From positions 1 to 16,502 of the IMG/VR virus record IMGVR_UViG_2718217860_000005: a stretch of 16,502 bases of DNA; one strand, 5' to 3'. A program made the position numbers and the translations under genes. The notes below the pieces were generated by a model. That model had not been told where the DNA came from. It worked only from the letters and a program-made list of their open reading frames with translations, and did no database searches. Origin of the DNA: a virus (lineage: Duplodnaviria; Heunggongvirae; Uroviricota; Caudoviricetes). Shown piece after piece: positions 1-16,502 of the stretch; the first letter of the stretch is position 1, and each line of letters starts with the position of its first letter.

Positions 1-258
1 ATGCAAACCGTTATTTTTGGTCGTTCGGGTTGCCCTTACTGTGTGCGTGCAAAAGATCTGGCTGAGAAATTGAGCAATGAACGCGATGATTTTCAGTATC
101 AGTATGTAGATATTCGTGCGGAAGGGATCACTAAAGAAGATCTACAACAAAAGGCAGGTAAACCCGTAGAAACCGTGCCGCAGATTTTTGTCGATCAGCA
201 ACATATCGGCGGCTATACCGATTTTGCTGCATGGGTGAAAGAAAATCTGGACGCCTGA
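1..258 (+). CDS. grxA: glutaredoxin 1
   Basis: 85-aa ORF with the CPYC active site (GRSGCPYCVRAK) and full-length match to E. coli GrxA as I recall it. Followed by a hairpin terminator. Confidence 0.9.
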   Translation: MQTVIFGRSGCPYCVRAKDLAEKLSNERDDFQYQYVDIRAEGITKEDLQQKAGKPVETVPQIFVDQQHIGGYTDFAAWVKENLDA

Positions 259-267
259 TCGTCTGAC

Positions 268-300
268 AAGCCCTCGCGTTGAGGGCTTTACTGATTTTTT
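268..300 (+). terminator. probable intrinsic terminator after grxA
   Basis: 8-bp stem AAGCCCTC / GAGGGCTT (268-275, 281-288) with loop GCGTT, followed by a T-run at 295-300. The U-tract is a few nt distal to the stem, so strength is uncertain. It overlaps the ybjM stop codon on the other strand. Confidence 0.5.
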
Positions 301-665
301 CTGTGCTGTGGTTTAAACAAACTACTGATAAATAAGAAACACAGTGCCCCCAGCGCACACCAGAACACCGCGCTTAGTAACCATGCCAGCTCTTGCCAGA
401 ATGAGCGCGTCGGTGAAAAAAACAGCCGCATAATGAGCATCGAACAGGGTGCCGCCAGCATTGCGCCAAACAGAGGTTTCAGGACTTCTCTACGCTGTGA
501 AAAGAAGCTGGCGACTGCTCCAGGAAGAATGAAAAATAGCAAGCCGATTTCAGGATGCCCGGCAGCCCGAAAAGCGCCTTTCATGTGCGTCGCCAGAAAA
601 AGGCACACCACAATGAAGAGGACAAAACAGCAGATTGCCCCCGCCCAACGTTGTTTATGTTTCAC
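288..665 (-). CDS. ybjM: inner membrane protein YbjM
   Basis: 125-aa hydrophobic ORF beginning MKHKQRWAGAICCFVLF. Length and sequence match my recollection of E. coli YbjM, and grxA-ybjM-ybjL synteny is as in E. coli. Confidence 0.8.
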   Translation of the reverse strand: MKHKQRWAGAICCFVLFIVVCLFLATHMKGAFRAAGHPEIGLLFFILPGAVASFFSQRREVLKPLFGAMLAAPCSMLIMRLFFSPTRSFWQELAWLLSAVFWCALGALCFLFISSLFKPQHRKNQ

Positions 666-934
666 TCGTTCCTCCTGACACTGCGTCTATCGAACACATT
701 TTTCGCCAGTGTGGCGTTCAGTAAGATAAAGCCGCTTCGCATTCCATGCTAATATAGGCCAACGCAATTCATATAGCCGTTGATACCTAATGTGATTACA
801 CTAGTAAAATATATTGTTACTTTACTATCGTTTAGGTGCGCTGAATGAATCTGCGCCCTGAATTCTGGTAAAAAACATTATCGTAAATTACCATTTCTTT
901 CAACAGCTTACTAGTAAACAAGAAGTTAGCCTCC

Positions 935-2620
935 GTGAATATAAACGTCGCCGAATTGTTAAATGGGAATTACATTTTGTTATTATTTGTGGTCCTCGCG
1001 CTTGGGCTATGTCTCGGAAAGTTACGACTTGGTTCGATCCAACTGGGTAATTCCATTGGCGTTTTAGTCGTATCGCTGTTATTAGGCCAACAACATTTCA
1101 GCATTAACACCGATGCGCTTAATCTTGGCTTTATGCTGTTTATTTTCTGCGTCGGGGTCGAAGCCGGACCGAACTTTTTTTCCATTTTTTTTCGCGATGG
1201 GAAAAATTACCTAATGTTAGCACTGGTGATGGTTGGCAGTGCGCTGGTGATCGCCTTAGGGTTAGGTAAGCTGTTTGGCTGGGATATTGGCCTGACGGCC
1301 GGTATGTTAGCAGGCTCTATGACGTCGACACCGGTTCTGGTCGGTGCTGGCGATACACTGCGTCATTCCGGCATGGAAAGCAGGCAGCTCTCACTGGCAC
1401 TGGATAATCTGAGCCTCGGGTATGCCTTAACCTATTTAATCGGTCTGGTGAGTTTGATTGTTGGTGCGCGTTACTTGCCGAAATTGCAGCATCAGGACTT
1501 ACAGACCAGCGCCCAGCAAATCGCCCGCGAACGTGGCCTGGACACTGATGCCAACCGTAAGGTTTATTTACCGGTGATCCGCGCCTATCGCGTCGGCCCG
1601 GAGCTGGTGGCCTGGACCGACGGCAAAAATCTGCGTGAACTGGGTATTTATCGACAAACCGGCTGCTACATTGAACGTATTCGACGTAACGGGATTCTGG
1701 CAAATCCAGACGGTGATGCCGTGCTACAAATGGGCGATGAAATAGCGTTGGTAGGCTATCCCGACGCCCATGCCCGACTCGATCCCAGCTTCCGTAACGG
1801 TAAAGAAGTTTTCGATCGTGACCTTCTCGACATGCGTATCGTCACTGAAGAAGTGGTCGTTAAAAACCATAACGCTGTAGGTAAACGTCTCGCACAACTG
1901 AAGTTGACCGATCACGGTTGCTTCCTTAACCGCGTCATTCGTAGCCAGATTGAGATGCCGATAGATGACAACGTCGTGCTTAACAAAGGTGACGTTTTAC
2001 AAGTCAGCGGTGATGCCCGTCGCGTAAAAACCATCGCCGATCGCATCGGCTTTATCTCGATTCACAGCCAGGTCACTGACCTGCTGGCATTTTGCGCCTT
2101 CTTTGTTATTGGGCTGATGATCGGGATGATCACCTTCCAGTTCAGCACATTCAGTTTCGGCATGGGGAACGCTGCCGGGTTGTTATTCGCCGGAATTATG
2201 CTGGGCTTTATGCGTGCTAACCACCCGACCTTCGGTTACATTCCGCAAGGTGCATTAAGCATGGTGAAAGAGTTCGGCTTGATGGTGTTTATGGCAGGCG
2301 TTGGTCTGAGCGCCGGTAGCGGTATTAATAACGGCCTGGGCGCGATTGGCGGTCAGATGTTGATTGCCGGATTAATTGTCAGTCTTGTGCCCGTGGTTAT
2401 CTGTTTCTTGTTCGGTGCTTATGTATTGCGAATGAACCGCGCACTGTTGTTCGGCGCAATGATGGGCGCACGCACCTGCGCGCCGGCAATGGAGATCATC
2501 AGTGATACAGCTCGCAGTAACATCCCTGCGCTGGGCTATGCGGGCACCTACGCAATCGCCAACGTCCTGCTGACGCTGGCAGGGACAATCATCGTCATGG
2601 TATGGCCAGGATTAGGATAA
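935..2620 (+). CDS. ybjL: putative transporter YbjL (AAE-family permease with two internal TrkA-C-like regulatory domains)
   Basis: 561-aa ORF with a GTG start at 935 ([13 protein letters not shown]...). Hydrophobic N- and C-terminal halves flank a soluble central region. Length and sequence match E. coli YbjL as I recall it. Confidence 0.85.
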
Positions 2621-2661
2621 AACTGAAGTTGCCCTGAAAATGAAATTTTTTTGCACAACCG

Positions 2662-2690
2662 CAGAACTTTTCCGCAGGGCATCAGTCTTA
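2662..2690 (+). promoter_or_regulatory. sigma-E (RpoE) type promoter of rybB
   Basis: -35-like GAACTT at 2664-2669 (consensus GGAACTT), 16-nt spacer, -10-like TCTTA at 2686-2690 (consensus TCTGA/TCAAA), then 6 nt to the RybB 5' end at 2697. RybB is known to be sigma-E dependent. Confidence 0.6.
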
Positions 2691-2696
2691 ATTAAT

Positions 2697-2775
2697 GCCA
2701 CTGCTTTTCTTTGATGTCCCCATTTTGTGGAGCCCATCAACCCCGCCATTTCGGTTCAAGGTTGATGGGTTTTTT
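2697..2775 (+). ncRNA. rybB: RybB small regulatory RNA (sigma-E-dependent, Hfq-binding OMP regulator)
   Basis: The 79-nt stretch GCCACTGCTTTTCTTTGATGTCCCC...GGTTGATGGGTTTTTT matches the RybB sequence as I remember it, including the 5' seed. It ends in a 10-bp hairpin (CCCATCAACC 2733-2742 / GGTTGATGGG 2760-2769) plus T6 at 2770-2775. In E. coli K-12 rybB lies between rcdA (ybjK) and ybjL. Confidence 0.75.
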
Positions 2776-2855
2776 GTTGCCTAAAATTTATTCTATTTAA
2801 AATCATGAGGTTAGAAGCACTGTTTTTTAACGATGGCGACAAAATGGCGGCAGCG

Positions 2856-3074
2856 TCAAAGAGAGAGCGCCACCTGTCCTGATTTCATTGGATGCGGCTG
2901 AACCGGATTTGACTCTTTTGGCGTTGCAATCGAACGAACAAAAGTTTCATGGGTAACAAAAGTATGGCTGCAGTTAATATTCTGGCACTGGTTGTAACGC
3001 TCTTTGGTCAATGAAGATACCTGAAAACTGCTGCGAGTATGGGCGGCACTTCCACACAGTGGGCAAATCATCAT
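2856..3074 (-). CDS. ogr: Ogr/Delta-family zinc-finger late-gene transcription activator
   Basis: C-x2-C-x22-C-x4-C motif (CPLCGSAAH...KERYNQCQNINC) and clear similarity to P2 Ogr. Starting at the ATG at 3074 gives 72 aa, the same length as P2 Ogr, with a GGGGAGA Shine-Dalgarno about 9 nt upstream. The ORF track's GTG at 3107 would add 11 residues. Confidence 0.8.
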   Translation of the reverse strand: MMICPLCGSAAHTRSSFQVSSLTKERYNQCQNINCSHTFVTHETFVRSIATPKESNPVQPHPMKSGQVALSL

Positions 3075-3164
3075 TTTTCGAGTTCTCCCCATTTTTGCTA
3101 AATTCACAATAATGATACCGCATTATTCCATTTTGCAAACTTAAAAGTTCTCCATTGCGAAGAA

Positions 3165-4265
3165 TCATTCCATTTCGAAATCATCAATCCTCACTTCAAG
3201 CTCCAGACTGGTCGTAAAACCGTTATCCGGGCTGACGGTATGCGTCAGAGTCGTAATGGTCCATTCCGCATCATCTATCGGCTGTTTAAAGCCACTGACT
3301 TTCACTGGCATTTCCGTGTAGAGATCTGCCCGACCTTCCGCCAGTTGTAGCGAGAATGACGCAACGCCGCGTTGCAGGCGTTCCCACTGCATTTTCGCCG
3401 CTCGTTCGGCGTTGCTCCGGTTGGCATAAGTGCGATTAAGTACCAGCACGTTTTCATCCGTACCCACCAGGTAATCGCCCTGCTTCGCTTCCGGCTCTTT
3501 CTTCTGCTTCTTAGTCCTGCGCTTACGCTTCACCGTGGTGCTTTCTTTCTTCGAGGGTTCGCGAGTATGCAACCAGCTGGCAATTACGCCCGTGTAAGCT
3601 CCGCGATCTGCCAGGGTAAAGCGGTGACTGTCGCCGTCCTTACGTGTGATAGTGATCACCGGCAGTGGTTTACCGCTGGCACTTTTACCCTGTCCCTGTC
3701 GGATGAATAACAGATTGCCATTTTTCACTGACGCGATAGCACCGTACTGGCGCGCCAGCCGCATCAGAAAACTGCCGTCACTCTCATTAGTCTGGTCTAT
3801 ATGTTCCACGGGCTTATCCGACAGGTCATTACCCAGTGCCATCTTCAGCTTGTGACGCGCGGCTATTTCCTTGACCACTTCCCCGACAGTGGTCTTGTGC
3901 CACGACTTTTCACGGCGGGTATTCAGCGTTTCACGAAAATCAGCACTTCGCGCCCGGATAGTCAGGCGGTCCGGTGCGCCAGTGTGTTCAATCTCGTCCA
4001 CCGTGAATGCCCCTTTCGGGAAAAGCGGCTGCCCCTTCCAGCCCAGCGCCAGCGTAATGACCGCACCACGGCGCGGCAGCGCTATTTTTCCATCGGCGTC
4101 GTCCAGCTCCAGATCAAGCTGGTCCGCTTCAAAGCCCCGGTTATCCGTCAGCGTCAGCCTCATCAGGCGGTTATCCAGCACAGTGGTGATATCCCTGCCC
4201 TCAATACTGATGCTGAATGCGGGAGTTTTGTTGCCTTTGTTAAGCAGTTCAGAGCTGAAATTCAC
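3165..4265 (-). CDS. D: P2 gpD-like tail protein
   Basis: 366-aa ORF in the position of P2 gene D (between U and ogr) with matching length class. Start overlaps the U stop (ATGA). Identified by synteny and recalled similarity to gpD. Confidence 0.75.
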   Translation of the reverse strand: MNFSSELLNKGNKTPAFSISIEGRDITTVLDNRLMRLTLTDNRGFEADQLDLELDDADGKIALPRRGAVITLALGWKGQPLFPKGAFTVDEIEHTGAPDRLTIRARSADFRETLNTRREKSWHKTTVGEVVKEIAARHKLKMALGNDLSDKPVEHIDQTNESDGSFLMRLARQYGAIASVKNGNLLFIRQGQGKSASGKPLPVITITRKDGDSHRFTLADRGAYTGVIASWLHTREPSKKESTTVKRKRRTKKQKKEPEAKQGDYLVGTDENVLVLNRTYANRSNAERAAKMQWERLQRGVASFSLQLAEGRADLYTEMPVKVSGFKQPIDDAEWTITTLTHTVSPDNGFTTSLELEVRIDDFEME

Positions 4266-10078: not shown

Positions 10079-10096
10079 TGTACCGTTATTCACACA
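10079..10096 (-). promoter_or_regulatory. Ogr-type late promoter element (PF-like), TGT-N12-ACA dyad
   Basis: The coding strand reads TGT-GTGAATAACGGT-ACA. Its centre is about 85 bp upstream of the FI ATG, compatible with a dyad centred near -55 and a leader of about 30 nt, as described for P2 late promoters. Confidence 0.55.
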
Positions 10097-13944: not shown

Positions 13945-14290
13945 TCTCTGCTCCTGTTGATACTGAAAGGGACACAGGCACACCGTTATTCCGCCGCCCG
14001 GTCAGCTCCACCACCATTGAACCGTCAAAATTGCTGTTAATAGTGATGGAATCCAGCGTCAGCCGTGGCTCCCAGCGACTCAGTGCCACATACACAGCCG
14101 ACATAACCTGCAGGCGTAACGCCGGATTTTGTGGCTGATCTATCAGTGCCGACAGCAGGGAACCATATTCCCGACGGGCAATGCGGCTACCCTGCGGCGT
14201 CAGCAGAATGTCCCGCACCGACTGGCGCAGATGGTCAATATCAGTAATGGCTTTACCGTTGGTATTGTTCATCCCGCTATAAAGCGTCAT
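13931..14290 (-). CDS. W: baseplate wedge protein (gpW-like, T4 gp25 family)
   Basis: 119-aa ORF between V and J (P2 gpW is about 115 aa), with the lysozyme-like gp25-family pattern (LLTPQGSRIARREYGS). ATGA overlap with V. Confidence 0.8.
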   Translation of the reverse strand: MTLYSGMNNTNGKAITDIDHLRQSVRDILLTPQGSRIARREYGSLLSALIDQPQNPALRLQVMSAVYVALSRWEPRLTLDSITINSNFDGSMVVELTGRRNNGVPVSLSVSTGAENGSD

Positions 14291-14865
14291 ACCGGGCCTC
14301 CGGTTGTGTCGCCGCCTTTCAGGACGCCAGTATGCTGATGCGCATCAACCACGATCCCGTTAGAACTCATTGCTCCGCCGCCCTGGGTAACGCCACCATT
14401 GATCACCACTTCGCTGTTAATGCGCGTGCGGTCAGCCTCCAGTACAAACTCACTGGTTTTCATGGTGATGTTGTCAGCGGCCTCAATGACCATTGATTTG
14501 ATGCCCCTGACATACCAGCGCCCGGTGGCGGGTTCATATTCAAACCAGCCACCGTCCGGGTATTCCGTCACGTTGCCGTCCTCAGAGCCTGAAGGTGGCG
14601 GAAACTGGTTTGAGTAGACCGCAGGCAGGGCAAACGCGGTTTCCAGATTGCCGCCAAGGCTGAACAGCACAACCTGCTCACCCACAGACGGTTTCCACCA
14701 GGTGCGCGATTTGCCCGCGCGCAGTGTCAGCCAGTTAATCCAGTTGGTTTCGAGGTCGCCAGTTTTCACCCGACACAGCCAGTTTGCCCTGTCCACTTCG
14801 GTGACTACACCTGTGCGGATCAGGTTGGTGATAAGGCGCATGATTTCGGTTAATTGTGCGTTCAT
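14287..14865 (-). CDS. V: baseplate spike/hub protein (gpV-like)
   Basis: 192-aa ORF. The N-terminus (NLIRTGVVTEVD...) and the C-terminal HQHTG...GGDTTGGPV region align with P2 gpV. It is the first gene of the V-W-J-I-H-tfa block. Confidence 0.8.
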   Translation of the reverse strand: MNAQLTEIMRLITNLIRTGVVTEVDRANWLCRVKTGDLETNWINWLTLRAGKSRTWWKPSVGEQVVLFSLGGNLETAFALPAVYSNQFPPPSGSEDGNVTEYPDGGWFEYEPATGRWYVRGIKSMVIEAADNITMKTSEFVLEADRTRINSEVVINGGVTQGGGAMSSNGIVVDAHQHTGVLKGGDTTGGPV

Positions 14866-14911
14866 AGGGAAAGGTTGCCATCAATAGCAAGCAGTAGACA
14901 GCCTTTGTAAT

Positions 14912-14929
14912 TGTATTAGACATAGAACA
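14912..14929 (-). promoter_or_regulatory. candidate Ogr-type late promoter element (PV-like), TGT-N12-ACA dyad
   Basis: TGT-TCTATGTCTAAT-ACA on the coding strand. The centre is only about 55 bp upstream of the V ATG, which would imply a very short or absent leader, so this call is tentative. Confidence 0.4.
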
Positions 14930-15085
14930 AATGCCTTTCAATGGTCTGCGTTAGAGCATTAATACGTTGCAAAAGGTCGAATGACGTTGCGCAAGTTAAG
15001 AAGTTCAATGCTCTTAAAAAAGCACTTGAAAGCAACGCCTTTAATTATTAAAAGCCAATTAATTTAGGCGGTTACTATGTTATCT

Positions 15086-15120
15086 TTGACACAAAAGATG
15101 TTTATTGACAATATATAAGT
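15086..15120 (+). promoter_or_regulatory. candidate sigma-70 promoter region for the DUF262 gene
   Basis: Two TTGACA hexamers (15086-15091 and 15105-15110) and an AT-rich TATATAAG stretch (15112-15119) lie 25-60 bp upstream of the ATG at 15144. The exact -35/-10 pairing is ambiguous. Confidence 0.4.
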
Positions 15121-15143
15121 TCAATCTAACAAGGAGAAAAATT

Positions 15144-16502
15144 ATGCCAAATGAAAATCTTGATATTGACTCAAGGACTACCGAGCAATTATACGAATGG
15201 TATTTGCAAGGAAATTTGATAGTCAATAGACGTTATCAAAGGAAACTTGTATGGTCTCTAGAAGAAAAGACTTCTTTAATATCTTCTATGCTGCAACAAT
15301 ATCCTATTCCGTTATTATTATTTGTTACCATCAATGAACAAAGAGAAATATTGGATGGAATGCAAAGATTAGAAGCAATTATGAGCTTCATCGAACAGAG
15401 ATTTTCATTAGATGGACAATATTTTGATTTGGACTCTATAGCTTTAACAAAACAACTTAAAGATAATGGAACTTTAATTCAGAAAGAACCAATCCTTTCC
15501 CGTGATTCTTCAGCAATTATTGCACGTTATCGATTTGCAATATCAGAATATAGCTCCACAAATGAAAATATTGACGAAGTATTCAGACGAATAAACTCAA
15601 ACGGGAAGATTTTATCCAAACAAGAATTACGTAGTGCAGGAACAGTTAGTAACTTCTCTGAACTGGTCAGATCGATATCAACATCGATCAGAGGTGATAC
15701 TAGCCATTCTGACATTATGAATCTCCAGCAAATGCACAAAATTTCAATCAGTAACGATAGATTGGAGTACGGGGTAAATATCGATAACCACTTTTATATA
15801 AAACATCATATTTTAACAAGACGAAGTATTCGTGATTCTGATGACGAGGAATTGATAGCCAATATCCTTGCATATATCAGTCTAGAAGAAAAACCCACAT
15901 CTGGGTCAACTTCTCTCGACACATTCTATGGTCAAGGAAACTCCTCTCATGCTCATGGTGTCAGACAGCAATTAGAGTCTTTCATTCAAACCAATAACGC
16001 TGCCACTATTAAGCAGAATTTCATAGCTGTATATGAATTAATTACAAGCCTATATGACGGAAAAAATGATACTTTTAGAAGCCATATTTTAGGGGAGGAT
16101 AATTCATCTCAAGAATGCCCTCGTTATTATCAAGCTGTGTTTTTGTCTATTTATGAACTTCTTTTCAACCAAAATATGCAATTAATTGATAAAGAAGGTT
16201 TATTCTCGCAATTAAAAAACACTGGCAATACCATAATTATGGTTACCGATGGTGGCCGCTGGGCTGCAAGCACTCGTGAAAAAAGTGTTAATGATCTTGT
16301 TGCATTAATAAGTCGTTACTTCCAACCTGCTCCTCAAAAGTATGTGAATCATGCTTGGGTAACTGAAATTCGCAATCTATTAACAAATTCTAGGGAAGGT
16401 GCGAATAAGCGGGGAAATTCTTCTCGGCTGACTCAGTCATTTCATTTCTTCATGTTTGAGCCGATTTTTTCTCCCGTAAATGCCTTGAATCAGCCTATTT
16501 AG
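15144..16502 (+). CDS. DUF262 / ParB-like (DGQHR-type) domain protein with an uncharacterised C-terminal half; candidate defence or restriction-like protein
   Basis: 452-aa ORF with an AAGGAG Shine-Dalgarno at 15131-15136 and a TAG stop at 16500-16502. N-terminal motifs RYQRKLVW, QQYPIP, DGMQR and FRRINSNGKIL fit the DUF262 signature. The sequence is AT-rich (about 35% GC in a hand-counted 60-nt sample) against about 60% in the tail genes. The ORF track's TTG at 15105 is an upstream alternative start that I discount. Confidence 0.65.
   Translation: MPNENLDIDSRTTEQLYEWYLQGNLIVNRRYQRKLVWSLEEKTSLISSMLQQYPIPLLLFVTINEQREILDGMQRLEAIMSFIEQRFSLDGQYFDLDSIALTKQLKDNGTLIQKEPILSRDSSAIIARYRFAISEYSSTNENIDEVFRRINSNGKILSKQELRSAGTVSNFSELVRSISTSIRGDTSHSDIMNLQQMHKISISNDRLEYGVNIDNHFYIKHHILTRRSIRDSDDEELIANILAYISLEEKPTSGSTSLDTFYGQGNSSHAHGVRQQLESFIQTNNAATIKQNFIAVYELITSLYDGKNDTFRSHILGEDNSSQECPRYYQAVFLSIYELLFNQNMQLIDKEGLFSQLKNTGNTIIMVTDGGRWAASTREKSVNDLVALISRYFQPAPQKYVNHAWVTEIRNLLTNSREGANKRGNSSRLTQSFHFFMFEPIFSPVNALNQPI

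What the first reader, a model, noticed from the sequence alone, without database searches (positions are those of the whole stretch)
14866..16502. AT-rich cargo gene encoding a DUF262/ParB-like protein with an unrecognised C-terminal half, divergent from the tail operon
Seen: composition switches abruptly at the V start codon. Hand-counted 60-nt samples give about 60% GC at 14281-14340 (tail genes) and about 35% at 15144-15203. A 452-aa ORF with a strong Shine-Dalgarno reads away from the tail genes, and its N-terminal approx. 200 aa carry the motifs I associate with the DUF262 domain (RYQRKLVW, QQYPIP, DGMQR, FRRINSNGKIL). Established: DUF262 domains occur in GmrSD type IV restriction enzymes (fused to a DUF1524 His-Me nuclease), SspE, BrxU and DndB-type proteins, and temperate phages carry such genes as morons. 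Inference: I cannot see an HxxP...N-type His-Me finger signature in the C-terminal approx. 250 aa. This is therefore either a DUF262 protein with a novel effector domain, or the sensor/NTPase subunit of a multi-gene system whose partners lie beyond 16502. The window ends exactly at this gene's stop, so the rest of any operon is invisible.
Basis: partly seen in the sequence, partly recalled or inferred. Interest (0 to 1): 0.75.

Follow-up and report, generated by a model that had tools for sequence, protein, structure and literature searches.

The report
IS5-broken DUF262-Schlafen phage-defence gene
The flagged gene is a prophage-carried copy of a recently described single-gene anti-phage system (a DUF262 sensor fused to a Schlafen-type RNA-cutting domain), but in this window an IS5 insertion sequence has cut off the RNA-cutting end, so the "unrecognised C-terminus" and the stop codon are partly an artefact.

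Summary
The AT-rich gene is real: the GC fraction is 0.35, against 0.55 in the tail genes. Its N-terminus is a significant DUF262/GmrSD_N domain (E 1e-17), and it has no His-Me nuclease.

The 452-aa ORF is a chimera. Window 16394-16502 is the end of an IS5 element inserted at a CTAG (16390-16393). Codons 418-452 and the stop codon are therefore IS5 sequence.

The uninterrupted allele is identical to the window in DNA up to the junction and is present in 26 complete E. coli genomes. It encodes 591 aa, and its missing C-terminus is a Schlafen AlbA_2 domain carrying the invariant catalytic motif E419-x4-D424-x-K426. That gene sits alone between the P2-like genes V and S, which is the classical "orf30" cargo slot. 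It has no partner genes.

DUF262-Schlafen fusions are a published class of prokaryotic Schlafen defence proteins. One member, EcoSlfn7, cuts T7 plating about 540-fold (Nat Microbiol 2026).

So this is a known kind in a known phage cargo site, and here the loss of the effector domain has most likely inactivated it. The DUF262 call and the "non-HNH effector" guess were right. The "multi-gene operon beyond the window" guess and "the window ends at the gene's stop" were wrong. Interest is low.

The parts
14287..14865 (-). P2-like baseplate assembly gene V. It is the last late gene before the cargo slot and marks the GC boundary.
   Evidence: ORF. Annotated as 'phage baseplate assembly protein V' in identical E. 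coli loci.
14866..15143 (.). Divergent intergenic region with a GC fraction of 0.34. It should hold the late promoter of V and the cargo gene's own promoter. AAGGAG (the Shine-Dalgarno sequence) lies at 15131-15136.
   Evidence: Composition and Shine-Dalgarno sequence. The layout matches phage P2, which has S, a terminator, Orf30 on the opposite strand, the Ogr activator site, then V. The consensus promoter scan found no convincing sigma-70 site for the cargo gene, so its promoter is not mapped.
14912..14929 (.). Candidate Ogr/Delta activator site (TGT-N12-ACA) for the V late promoter, 47-64 bp upstream of the V start codon.
   Evidence: Pattern match. The position agrees with P2's annotated activator site. 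The window-wide count (7 observed, 4.7 expected) is not above chance, so this is a candidate only.
15144..16393 (+). Native 5' portion (codons 1-417; the last codon spans the junction) of a 591-codon DUF262-Schlafen defence gene. It is identical in DNA to WP_100266644.1's gene in E. coli AR_0019.
15210..15638 (+). DUF262 / GmrSD_N (ParB/Srx-like NTP-binding) domain, residues 23-165, with the YQRxxVW, DGMQR and FRRINSxG motifs.
15639..16393 (+). Mostly helical middle region, residues about 166-417, with no Pfam family. Residues up to about 348 are shared with the PADLOC NsnA profile.
   Evidence: AlphaFold2 secondary structure, pLDDT mostly 80-95. PADLOC NsnA hit over residues 9-348. No specific fold match.
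16390..16393 (.). CTAG, the IS5 target site at the insertion point.
   Evidence: Sequence. That IS5 prefers YTAR/CTAG targets is from my own knowledge, not tested here.
16394..16502 (.). Terminal 109 bp of an IS5 element (inverted repeat GGAAGGTGCGAATAAG at 16394-16409). This is the end nearest the 3' end of the transposase gene. It supplies codons 418-452 and the TAG of the chimeric ORF.
   Evidence: It matches 8,222 places in 2,098 E. coli records, at 99% identity or more in 2,016 of them, including 916 on plasmids. It lies next to an 'IS5-like element IS5 family transposase' gene in L002. The reference copy is 1,195 bp with matching 16-bp inverted repeats.

Best explanation
The flagged gene is a copy of a single-gene anti-phage system of the prokaryotic Schlafen class (a DUF262-Slfn fusion, the architecture of the published EcoSlfn7). 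It is carried as cargo in the S/V ('orf30') slot of a P2-like prophage of E. coli, and here an IS5 insertion has disrupted it.

The intact 591-aa protein has three parts:
- an N-terminal DUF262 ParB/Srx-type nucleotide-binding domain;
- a helical middle region;
- a C-terminal Schlafen AlbA_2 nuclease domain with the catalytic motif E419-x4-D424-x-K426.

Inferred mechanism for the intact protein: the DUF262 domain and helical region act as a nucleotide-dependent sensor or switch. On infection this switch releases the Schlafen endoribonuclease, which cleaves tRNA, as shown for the related RorSlfn5 and for human SLFN11/13. Cleavage stops translation and phage production.

In this window IS5 inserted at codon 417, two codons before the catalytic Glu. 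The gene now encodes residues 1-417 plus 35 IS5-derived residues and has no effector domain, so as a defence gene it is most likely inactive.

Shown here: the domain content, the conserved motifs, the IS5 junction, the single-gene context and the slot. Taken from the literature: the defence phenotype of one DUF262-Slfn and the tRNase activity of another pSlfn. Inferred: the sensor role of DUF262, the tRNA target, and the loss of function.
For: IS5 disruption:
- Other E. coli genomes match the region at 100% identity only to window 16393.
- The last 109 bp are an IS5 end.
- The alignment with the intact allele diverges exactly after CTAG, and the first amino-acid difference is at residue 418.

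Intact gene:
- It encodes 591 aa and stands alone between V and S in E. coli AR_0019 and in Enterobacter hormaechei.
- This is the same slot and orientation as P2's nonessential Orf30.

Domains:
- GmrSD_N matches with E 1.7e-17. SLFN_AlbA_2 matches residues 419-575 with E 1e-7 for the C-terminus alone, 32.8 bits against a cut-off of 25.3.
- The AlphaFold2 model has pLDDT 87.6 and pTM 0.81.
- Foldseek gives BrxU, ParB-CDP, DIP2311 (probability 1.0) and SLFN5/13/14.

Motifs: Ex4(E/D)xK and DGxQR are present in 113 of 113 full-length homologs and invariant in the 32-sequence alignment.

Literature (PMC13056530):
- Ex4(E/D)xK is the catalytic motif, and DUF262 fusions make up 1.8% of 5,930 pSlfns.
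- EcoSlfn7 reduces T7 plating 538-fold under its native promoter.
Against: - The sequence of the tested EcoSlfn7 could not be retrieved. Strain UC4224 is not among the 28 complete genomes carrying this allele, so this allele is not the tested one and its own phenotype is unknown.
- Only two of the seven pSlfns tested in that paper gave protection.
- No biochemistry exists for any DUF262-Slfn. The tRNA target and the sensor role of DUF262 are extrapolated.
- The Pfam AlbA_2 hit is modest (E 1e-6 to 1e-7).
- What follows IS5 in the source genome is unknown. The rest of the gene may or may not still be there.
Confidence: 0.85

Rival explanations
1. It is a GmrSD-family type IV restriction enzyme that cuts modified phage DNA, as the RefSeq product name suggests ('GmrSD restriction endonuclease domain-containing protein').
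For: The N-terminal GmrSD_N domain is significant. The best fold match is BrxU, a GmrSD-family enzyme. RefSeq uses this name.
Against: Neither the window ORF nor the intact protein has the defining C-terminal DUF1524/His-Me finger nuclease. The C-terminus is a Schlafen AlbA_2 domain instead. The tested DUF262-Slfn is most active against T7, whose DNA I understand to be unmodified (for the activity; the T7 DNA point is from my own knowledge).
Confidence: 0.03
2. It is the sensor or NTPase subunit of a multi-gene system (for example Menshen NsnABC or PD-T4-2) whose partners lie beyond the window's end.
For: The best PADLOC hits are NsnA (E 2e-23, residues 9-348) and PD-T4-2_A (E 1e-17).
Against: - In uninterrupted loci the gene is flanked directly by V and S, with no other gene in between.
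- The plasmid, Vibrio and Pseudomonas relatives share no conserved neighbour.
- The PADLOC hits cover only the DUF262 and helical part.
- The protein carries its own effector domain.
Confidence: 0.03
3. The C-terminal AlbA_2 domain is a nucleic-acid-binding module rather than a nuclease (RefSeq names some fragments 'AlbA family DNA-binding domain-containing protein'). On this reading the DUF262 domain itself is the active NTPase or nuclease.
For: The AlbA_2 domains of SAMD9 (7ksp) and DIP2311 were solved as DNA-binding or uncharacterised domains. Some ParB-like domains are nucleases, for example 5k5d.
Against: The Ex4DxK triad, which the literature identifies as the Schlafen catalytic motif, is invariant in 113 of 113 homologs across phyla. 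That argues for retained catalysis.
Confidence: 0.08
4. The IS5-truncated product (DUF262 plus helical region plus a 35-aa IS5 tail) is not dead. It may be a stable effector-less sensor with a new role, such as interfering with related full-length proteins. Alternatively, the knock-out itself was selected because the effector is costly.
For: - The promoter, Shine-Dalgarno sequence and 417 native codons are intact and identical to the functional allele.
- The same allele is hit independently by IS1 in two genomes.
- The 69%-identical plasmid paralog is broken by ISKpn26, IS1 and ISVsa5, and only 107 of 847 records keep 80% or more of it.
Against: There is no evidence of expression or stability. 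IS insertions in accessory genes are common and need no selection. The junction was found in no other record, so there is no sign that it has spread.
Confidence: 0.07

Closest known systems
Prokaryotic Schlafen defence proteins, DUF262-Slfn architecture (EcoSlfn7 of E. coli UC4224; Perez Taboada et al., Nat Microbiol 2026, PMC13056530)
   Same: - Same two-domain logic in a single polypeptide: an N-terminal DUF262 and a Schlafen AlbA_2 domain with the Ex4(E/D)xK motif.
- Single-gene system in Enterobacterales with its own promoter.
   Different: - The window copy lacks the whole Schlafen domain because of IS5.
- UC4224 is not among the carriers of this allele, so the two differ by an unknown amount. 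The sequence of EcoSlfn7 was not available to me.
- The mechanism of the DUF262-Slfn class has not been studied.
GmrSD / BrxU / SspE family (DUF262 + DUF1524 His-Me nuclease)
   Same: Homologous DUF262 NTP-binding domain with the YQR, DGxQR and FxxxN motifs. These are the best structural matches.
   Different: The effector is a Schlafen RNase-type domain rather than a DUF1524 His-Me DNA nuclease. DNA modification is unlikely to be the cue.
RorSlfn5 and human SLFN11/13, SAMD9 (Schlafen/AlbA_2 tRNA nucleases)
   Same: Same effector fold and catalytic motif. It probably acts the same way, through tRNA cleavage and translation arrest.
   Different: The sensor domain is different: DUF262 here, against an Ig-like domain, a helicase or the SAMD9 multidomain. 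The trigger is unknown.
Phage P2 Orf30 cargo slot between S and V
   Same: Same position and same orientation opposite to the late operons. It is low-GC and nonessential cargo.
   Different: The cargo is unrelated. P2 Orf30 is 261 aa and shows no similarity (E 0.16).
Menshen NsnA / PD-T4-2 protein A (PADLOC models)
   Same: They share the DUF262 domain and part of the helical region (E 2e-23 and 1e-17).
   Different: Those are components of multi-gene systems. Here there are no partner genes, and the effector is fused to the protein.

Membership tests
Prokaryotic Schlafen (pSlfn), DUF262-Slfn class | Schlafen AlbA_2 nuclease domain | tested here: met
Prokaryotic Schlafen (pSlfn), DUF262-Slfn class | Catalytic Ex4(E/D)xK motif | tested here: met
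   The intact allele has E419-QPSY-D424-F-K426. The motif is invariant in 32 of 32 aligned homologs and present in 113 of 113. Its definition comes from PMC13056530. It is absent from the window ORF.
Prokaryotic Schlafen (pSlfn), DUF262-Slfn class | Fusion to a DUF262 domain in one polypeptide | tested here: met
   GmrSD_N matches residues 26-165 with E 1.7e-17 in the same 591-aa protein.
Prokaryotic Schlafen (pSlfn), DUF262-Slfn class | Anti-phage phenotype and RNA cleavage | not testable with these tools
   Only literature evidence exists, and for other members: EcoSlfn7 (efficiency of plating) and RorSlfn5 (tRNA cleavage).
GmrSD type IV restriction enzymes | N-terminal DUF262 NTPase domain | tested here: met
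   BrxU is the top fold match.
GmrSD type IV restriction enzymes | C-terminal DUF1524 (GmrSD_C) His-Me finger nuclease | tested here: not met
   Neither the window ORF nor the intact protein gives a Pfam hit at E up to 1. The C-terminus is AlbA_2.
Menshen (NsnABC) / PD-T4-2 | Partner genes (NsnB and NsnC, or PD-T4-2 B) adjacent | tested here: not met
   The gene is alone between V and S. Other contexts show no conserved neighbours.
IS5 insertion sequence | Terminal 16-bp inverted repeat and identity to IS5 ends next to an IS5 transposase gene | tested here: met
   Window 16394-16502 matches at 99% identity or more in 2,016 of 2,098 records. It lies adjacent to an IS5 family transposase gene. 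The reference element is 1,195 bp with inverted repeats GGAAGGTGCGAATAAG and GGAAGGTGCGAACAAG.
IS5 insertion sequence | 4-bp target duplication (CTAG) on both sides and a complete element | not testable with these tools
   The window ends 109 bp into the element. No other record holds the junction.
P2-like prophage cargo ('orf30') slot | Location between tail-completion gene S and baseplate gene V, transcribed opposite to them | tested here: met
   Intact loci.

The most novel reading that the evidence does not exclude
Intact members of this family could be nucleotide-gated Schlafen tRNases. In this reading a ParB/Srx-type DUF262 NTP switch senses a broad, modification-independent phage cue and licenses tRNA cleavage. 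That activation mode has not been shown for any Schlafen. The repeated IS knock-outs would then reflect selection against a self-toxic effector. These are IS5 here, IS1 in two other chromosomes, and ISKpn26, IS1 and ISVsa5 in the plasmid paralog.
Probability: 0.25. Interest if true: 0.5.

Novelty: new member of a known kind. Interest (0 to 1): 0.2.

Why it matters
- It corrects a misreading. The apparently novel C-terminal half and the stop codon are products of an IS5 insertion, and the real effector is a Schlafen domain outside the window.
- It places a DUF262-Schlafen defence gene in the classical orf30 cargo slot of P2-like prophages in Escherichia and Enterobacter.
- It shows that RefSeq's 'GmrSD restriction endonuclease' label and PADLOC v2 (which gives only partial NsnA and PD-T4-2 hits) misdescribe this family.
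- The mechanism of the DUF262-Schlafen class is still open. The intact allele (WP_100266644.1) and this natural effector-less allele would make a convenient matched pair for experiments.
- Nothing here is a new kind of system.

Tried and rejected
- NCBIfam has no model for the protein.
- A sequence search of the PDB gave only a weak local hit, E 6e-4 to an 'HNH nuclease domain-containing protein', over a short DUF262 stretch with no domain passing on its own. I judged it uninformative.
- No deposited phage genome holds the full-length protein. All 64 hits cover less than 40% of the query.
- The sigma-70 and terminator scan of 14800-15200 found no convincing promoter for the cargo gene.
- I tried to obtain the EcoSlfn7 sequence or accession. 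No supplementary files are held for either version of the paper, the text gives no accessions, and the UC4224 genome papers give only assembly ids. UC4224 was not visible among the carriers.
- The exact 452-aa chimera is not on record.
- The junction sequence is absent from metagenome and genome contig collections and from 5,426 complete E. coli genomes.
- The middle region (residues about 166-417) gave no specific fold or family match. The only hit was a sub-threshold one to DUF7602.
- P2 Orf30 was tested as a possible relative and is unrelated.
- TGT-N12-ACA sites are not enriched in the window as a whole.
Full report
**1. Checking the observation**

The window is E. coli chromosome. Host genes grxA, ybjM and ybjL lie at the left end. 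They are followed by the end of a P2-like prophage carrying ogr, D, U, T, E, FII, FI, G, H, I, J, W and V on the - strand.

The GC fraction is 0.553 over the late genes. It falls to 0.342 in the 278-bp intergenic region (14866-15143) and to 0.346 in the flagged gene.

An ORF runs from ATG 15144 to TAG 16502 (452 aa) and diverges from gene V. AAGGAG sits 7 nt upstream of the ATG.

Pfam GmrSD_N (DUF262) matches residues 23-165 with E 9.6e-18. No His-Me, DUF1524 or HNH profile matches.

**2. The ORF's end is an artefact of an insertion sequence**

A megablast of 14700-16502 against 5,426 complete E. coli genomes gave 100% matches that all stop at window 16393. The remaining 109 bases matched thousands of places instead.

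Searched alone, 16394-16502 hits 8,222 places in 2,098 records, 916 of them on plasmids. Identity is 99% or more in 2,016 of those records. In a reference copy these bases lie next to an 'IS5-like element IS5 family transposase' gene. That copy is 1,195 bp long with 16-bp terminal inverted repeats, GGAAGGTGCGAATAAG and GGAAGGTGCGAACAAG.

In the window the first of these repeats starts at 16394, directly after CTAG at 16390-16393. The window is identical to the uninterrupted allele through 16393. The first amino-acid difference is at residue 418.

The 452-aa product is therefore 417 native residues plus 35 residues and a stop codon read from IS5. In fact the ORF runs into IS5, and the window ends 109 bp into that element.

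**3. The intact gene**

In E. coli AR_0019 the gene is 1,776 bp and encodes 591 aa (WP_100266644.1). It is the only gene between baseplate gene V and the virion-morphogenesis gene S. An 89%-identical ortholog occupies the same place in P2-like prophages of Enterobacter hormaechei.

Phage P2 has the same layout: S, a terminator, the nonessential Orf30 on the opposite strand, the Ogr activator site, then V. P2 Orf30 is unrelated to this protein (E 0.16). The slot is therefore shared but the cargo differs. Cargo and defence hotspots within the P2 tail genes are already described (PMC13586616).

The multi-gene alternative is refuted, because there is no room for partner genes. The best PADLOC hits are NsnA (E 2e-23) and PD-T4-2_A (E 1e-17), and they cover only the DUF262 and helical part.

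**4. Domain content of the intact protein**

Pfam finds GmrSD_N at residues 26-165 (E 1.7e-17). It also finds Schlafen AlbA_2 (PF04326) at residues 419-575. For the C-terminus alone that hit has E 1e-7 and 32.8 bits against a cut-off of 25.3. A PHROG of unknown function (phrog_26759) covers the whole length (E 1.4e-75).

Foldseek agrees, with BrxU, ParB-CDP, DIP2311 (probability 1.0) and SLFN5/13/14. The helical middle region (residues about 166-417) has no specific match.

**5. Conservation**

The roughly 590-600-aa architecture is widespread. It occurs in Enterobacterales, Vibrio, Aeromonas, Pseudomonas, Comamonas, Sulfitobacter and cyanobacteria, with at least 1,754 hits at E up to 1e-5.

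In a 32-sequence alignment that reaches down to 38% identity, the invariant residues include:
- the DUF262 motifs N28-R-x-Y-Q-R-K-L-x-W37, D71-G-M-Q-R75 and F147-x-R-I-N-x-x-G154;
- E419, D424 and K426 in the C-terminal domain.

All 113 full-length homologs retrieved keep both Ex4(E/D)xK and DGxQR.

**6. Comparison with what is known**

Perez Taboada et al. (Nat Microbiol 2026, PMC13056530; preprint July 2025) catalogued 5,930 prokaryotic Schlafen proteins. They define Ex4(E/D)xK as the catalytic motif. They report DUF262 fusions as 1.8% of the set.

[quoted passage not shown] For another member, RorSlfn5, they show trigger-dependent cleavage of the tRNA anticodon arm.

The intact protein here meets the sequence-level criteria for this class, namely the AlbA_2 domain, the motif and the DUF262 fusion. 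It fails the defining criterion of GmrSD enzymes, the DUF1524 nuclease. RefSeq's name, 'GmrSD restriction endonuclease domain-containing protein', is therefore misleading.

I could not obtain the EcoSlfn7 sequence. UC4224 is not among the 28 complete genomes that carry this allele, so this is a different member of the class.

**7. Most likely mechanism**

What is shown:
- It is a single-gene system.
- The N-terminal domain is a ParB/Srx-like nucleotide-binding domain with its signature motifs intact.
- The C-terminal domain is a Schlafen domain with an intact catalytic triad.

What is inferred by analogy with BrxU, SspE and ParB (nucleotide-controlled switches) and with RorSlfn5, SLFN11/13 and SAMD9 (tRNA nucleases):
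- The DUF262-helical module senses infection and controls the Schlafen RNase.
- The RNase cuts tRNA and halts translation.

In this window the IS5 insertion sits two codons upstream of the catalytic Glu and removes the entire effector domain. The copy is therefore most likely a defence pseudogene. Its promoter, Shine-Dalgarno sequence and first 417 codons are untouched, so a truncated sensor-only protein could still be made.

**8. Distribution and decay**

Of 5,426 complete E. coli genomes, 28 carry this allele at 98.5% identity or more. Twenty-six of them are uninterrupted and two are split by IS1 at about nucleotide 498. None has the IS5 insertion. The junction is also absent from the gene-product index and from the metagenome and genome contig collections.

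A paralog that is 69% identical in protein sits next to pemIK on IncFII-type plasmids in about 800 genomes. Only 107 of 847 records keep 80% or more of it, and several carry ISKpn26, IS1 or ISVsa5 insertions.

Distant relatives sit alone in a Vibrio integrase/CI/replicase element and in a variable chromosomal spot in Pseudomonas.

**9. Verdict**

The gene is a member of a known, experimentally supported kind of defence system, in a known cargo slot, and it is broken here by IS5. The open questions are the trigger, the role of DUF262 and the RNA target. These belong to the family as a whole and are not made more testable by this truncated copy.

Noticed in passing
L003:4289-6061 (E. coli plasmid pEC96-CTX-M-215, NZ_CP060753.1) and about 850 other plasmid places: A paralog that is 69% identical in protein (590 aa, WP_100038971.1) sits next to pemIK on IncFII-type plasmids in about 800 of 5,426 E. 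coli genomes. Only 107 of 847 records keep 80% or more of the gene. Several carry ISKpn26, IS1 or ISVsa5 insertions, and large clusters of fragments exist (P0063, 500 aa, 1,685 members; P0075, 336 aa, 1,100 members).
   Followed up: partly
L005:601-3153 (E. coli CFSAN064035; also strain 22AR0322): In two other genomes the same chromosomal allele is split by an IS1 element at about nucleotide 498, inside the DUF262 domain. This disruption is independent of the window's IS5 insertion.
   Followed up: partly
window 1-3400: The left end is host chromosome (grxA, ybjM, ybjL), present in 5,417 of 5,426 E. coli genomes. It is followed by the prophage end with an ogr/Delta-like zinc-finger gene and gene D. 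The host-prophage junction (att site) should lie around 2,650-3,160 but was not mapped.
   Followed up: no
window 10079-10096 and 14912-14929: TGT-N12-ACA sequences lie upstream of the FI operon and of V, where P2 late promoters carry Ogr sites. The window-wide count (7 observed, 4.7 expected) is not above chance.
   Followed up: partly
L002:1497-1500 and 2696-2699: The reference IS5 copy used for comparison is flanked by CTAA on one side and TTAG on the other. These are not a direct repeat. That could mean recombination between two IS5 copies in that genome.
   Followed up: no
L006:9965-10150 (Vibrio) and L009:10049-10321 (Pseudomonas): Distant full-length homologs are each followed, 180-250 bp downstream on the same strand, by a small ORF (61 and 90 aa) with no Pfam hit. 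The E. coli and Enterobacter prophage copies have no such ORF. Whether the two small ORFs are related was not tested.
   Followed up: no
phage records H41-H61 (T4-like Krischvirus and related coliphages): Many large virulent coliphages encode a short stretch that is 37-38% identical to residues 16-91 of the DUF262 domain, annotated as hypothetical. These could be small phage-borne DUF262-like proteins.
   Followed up: no
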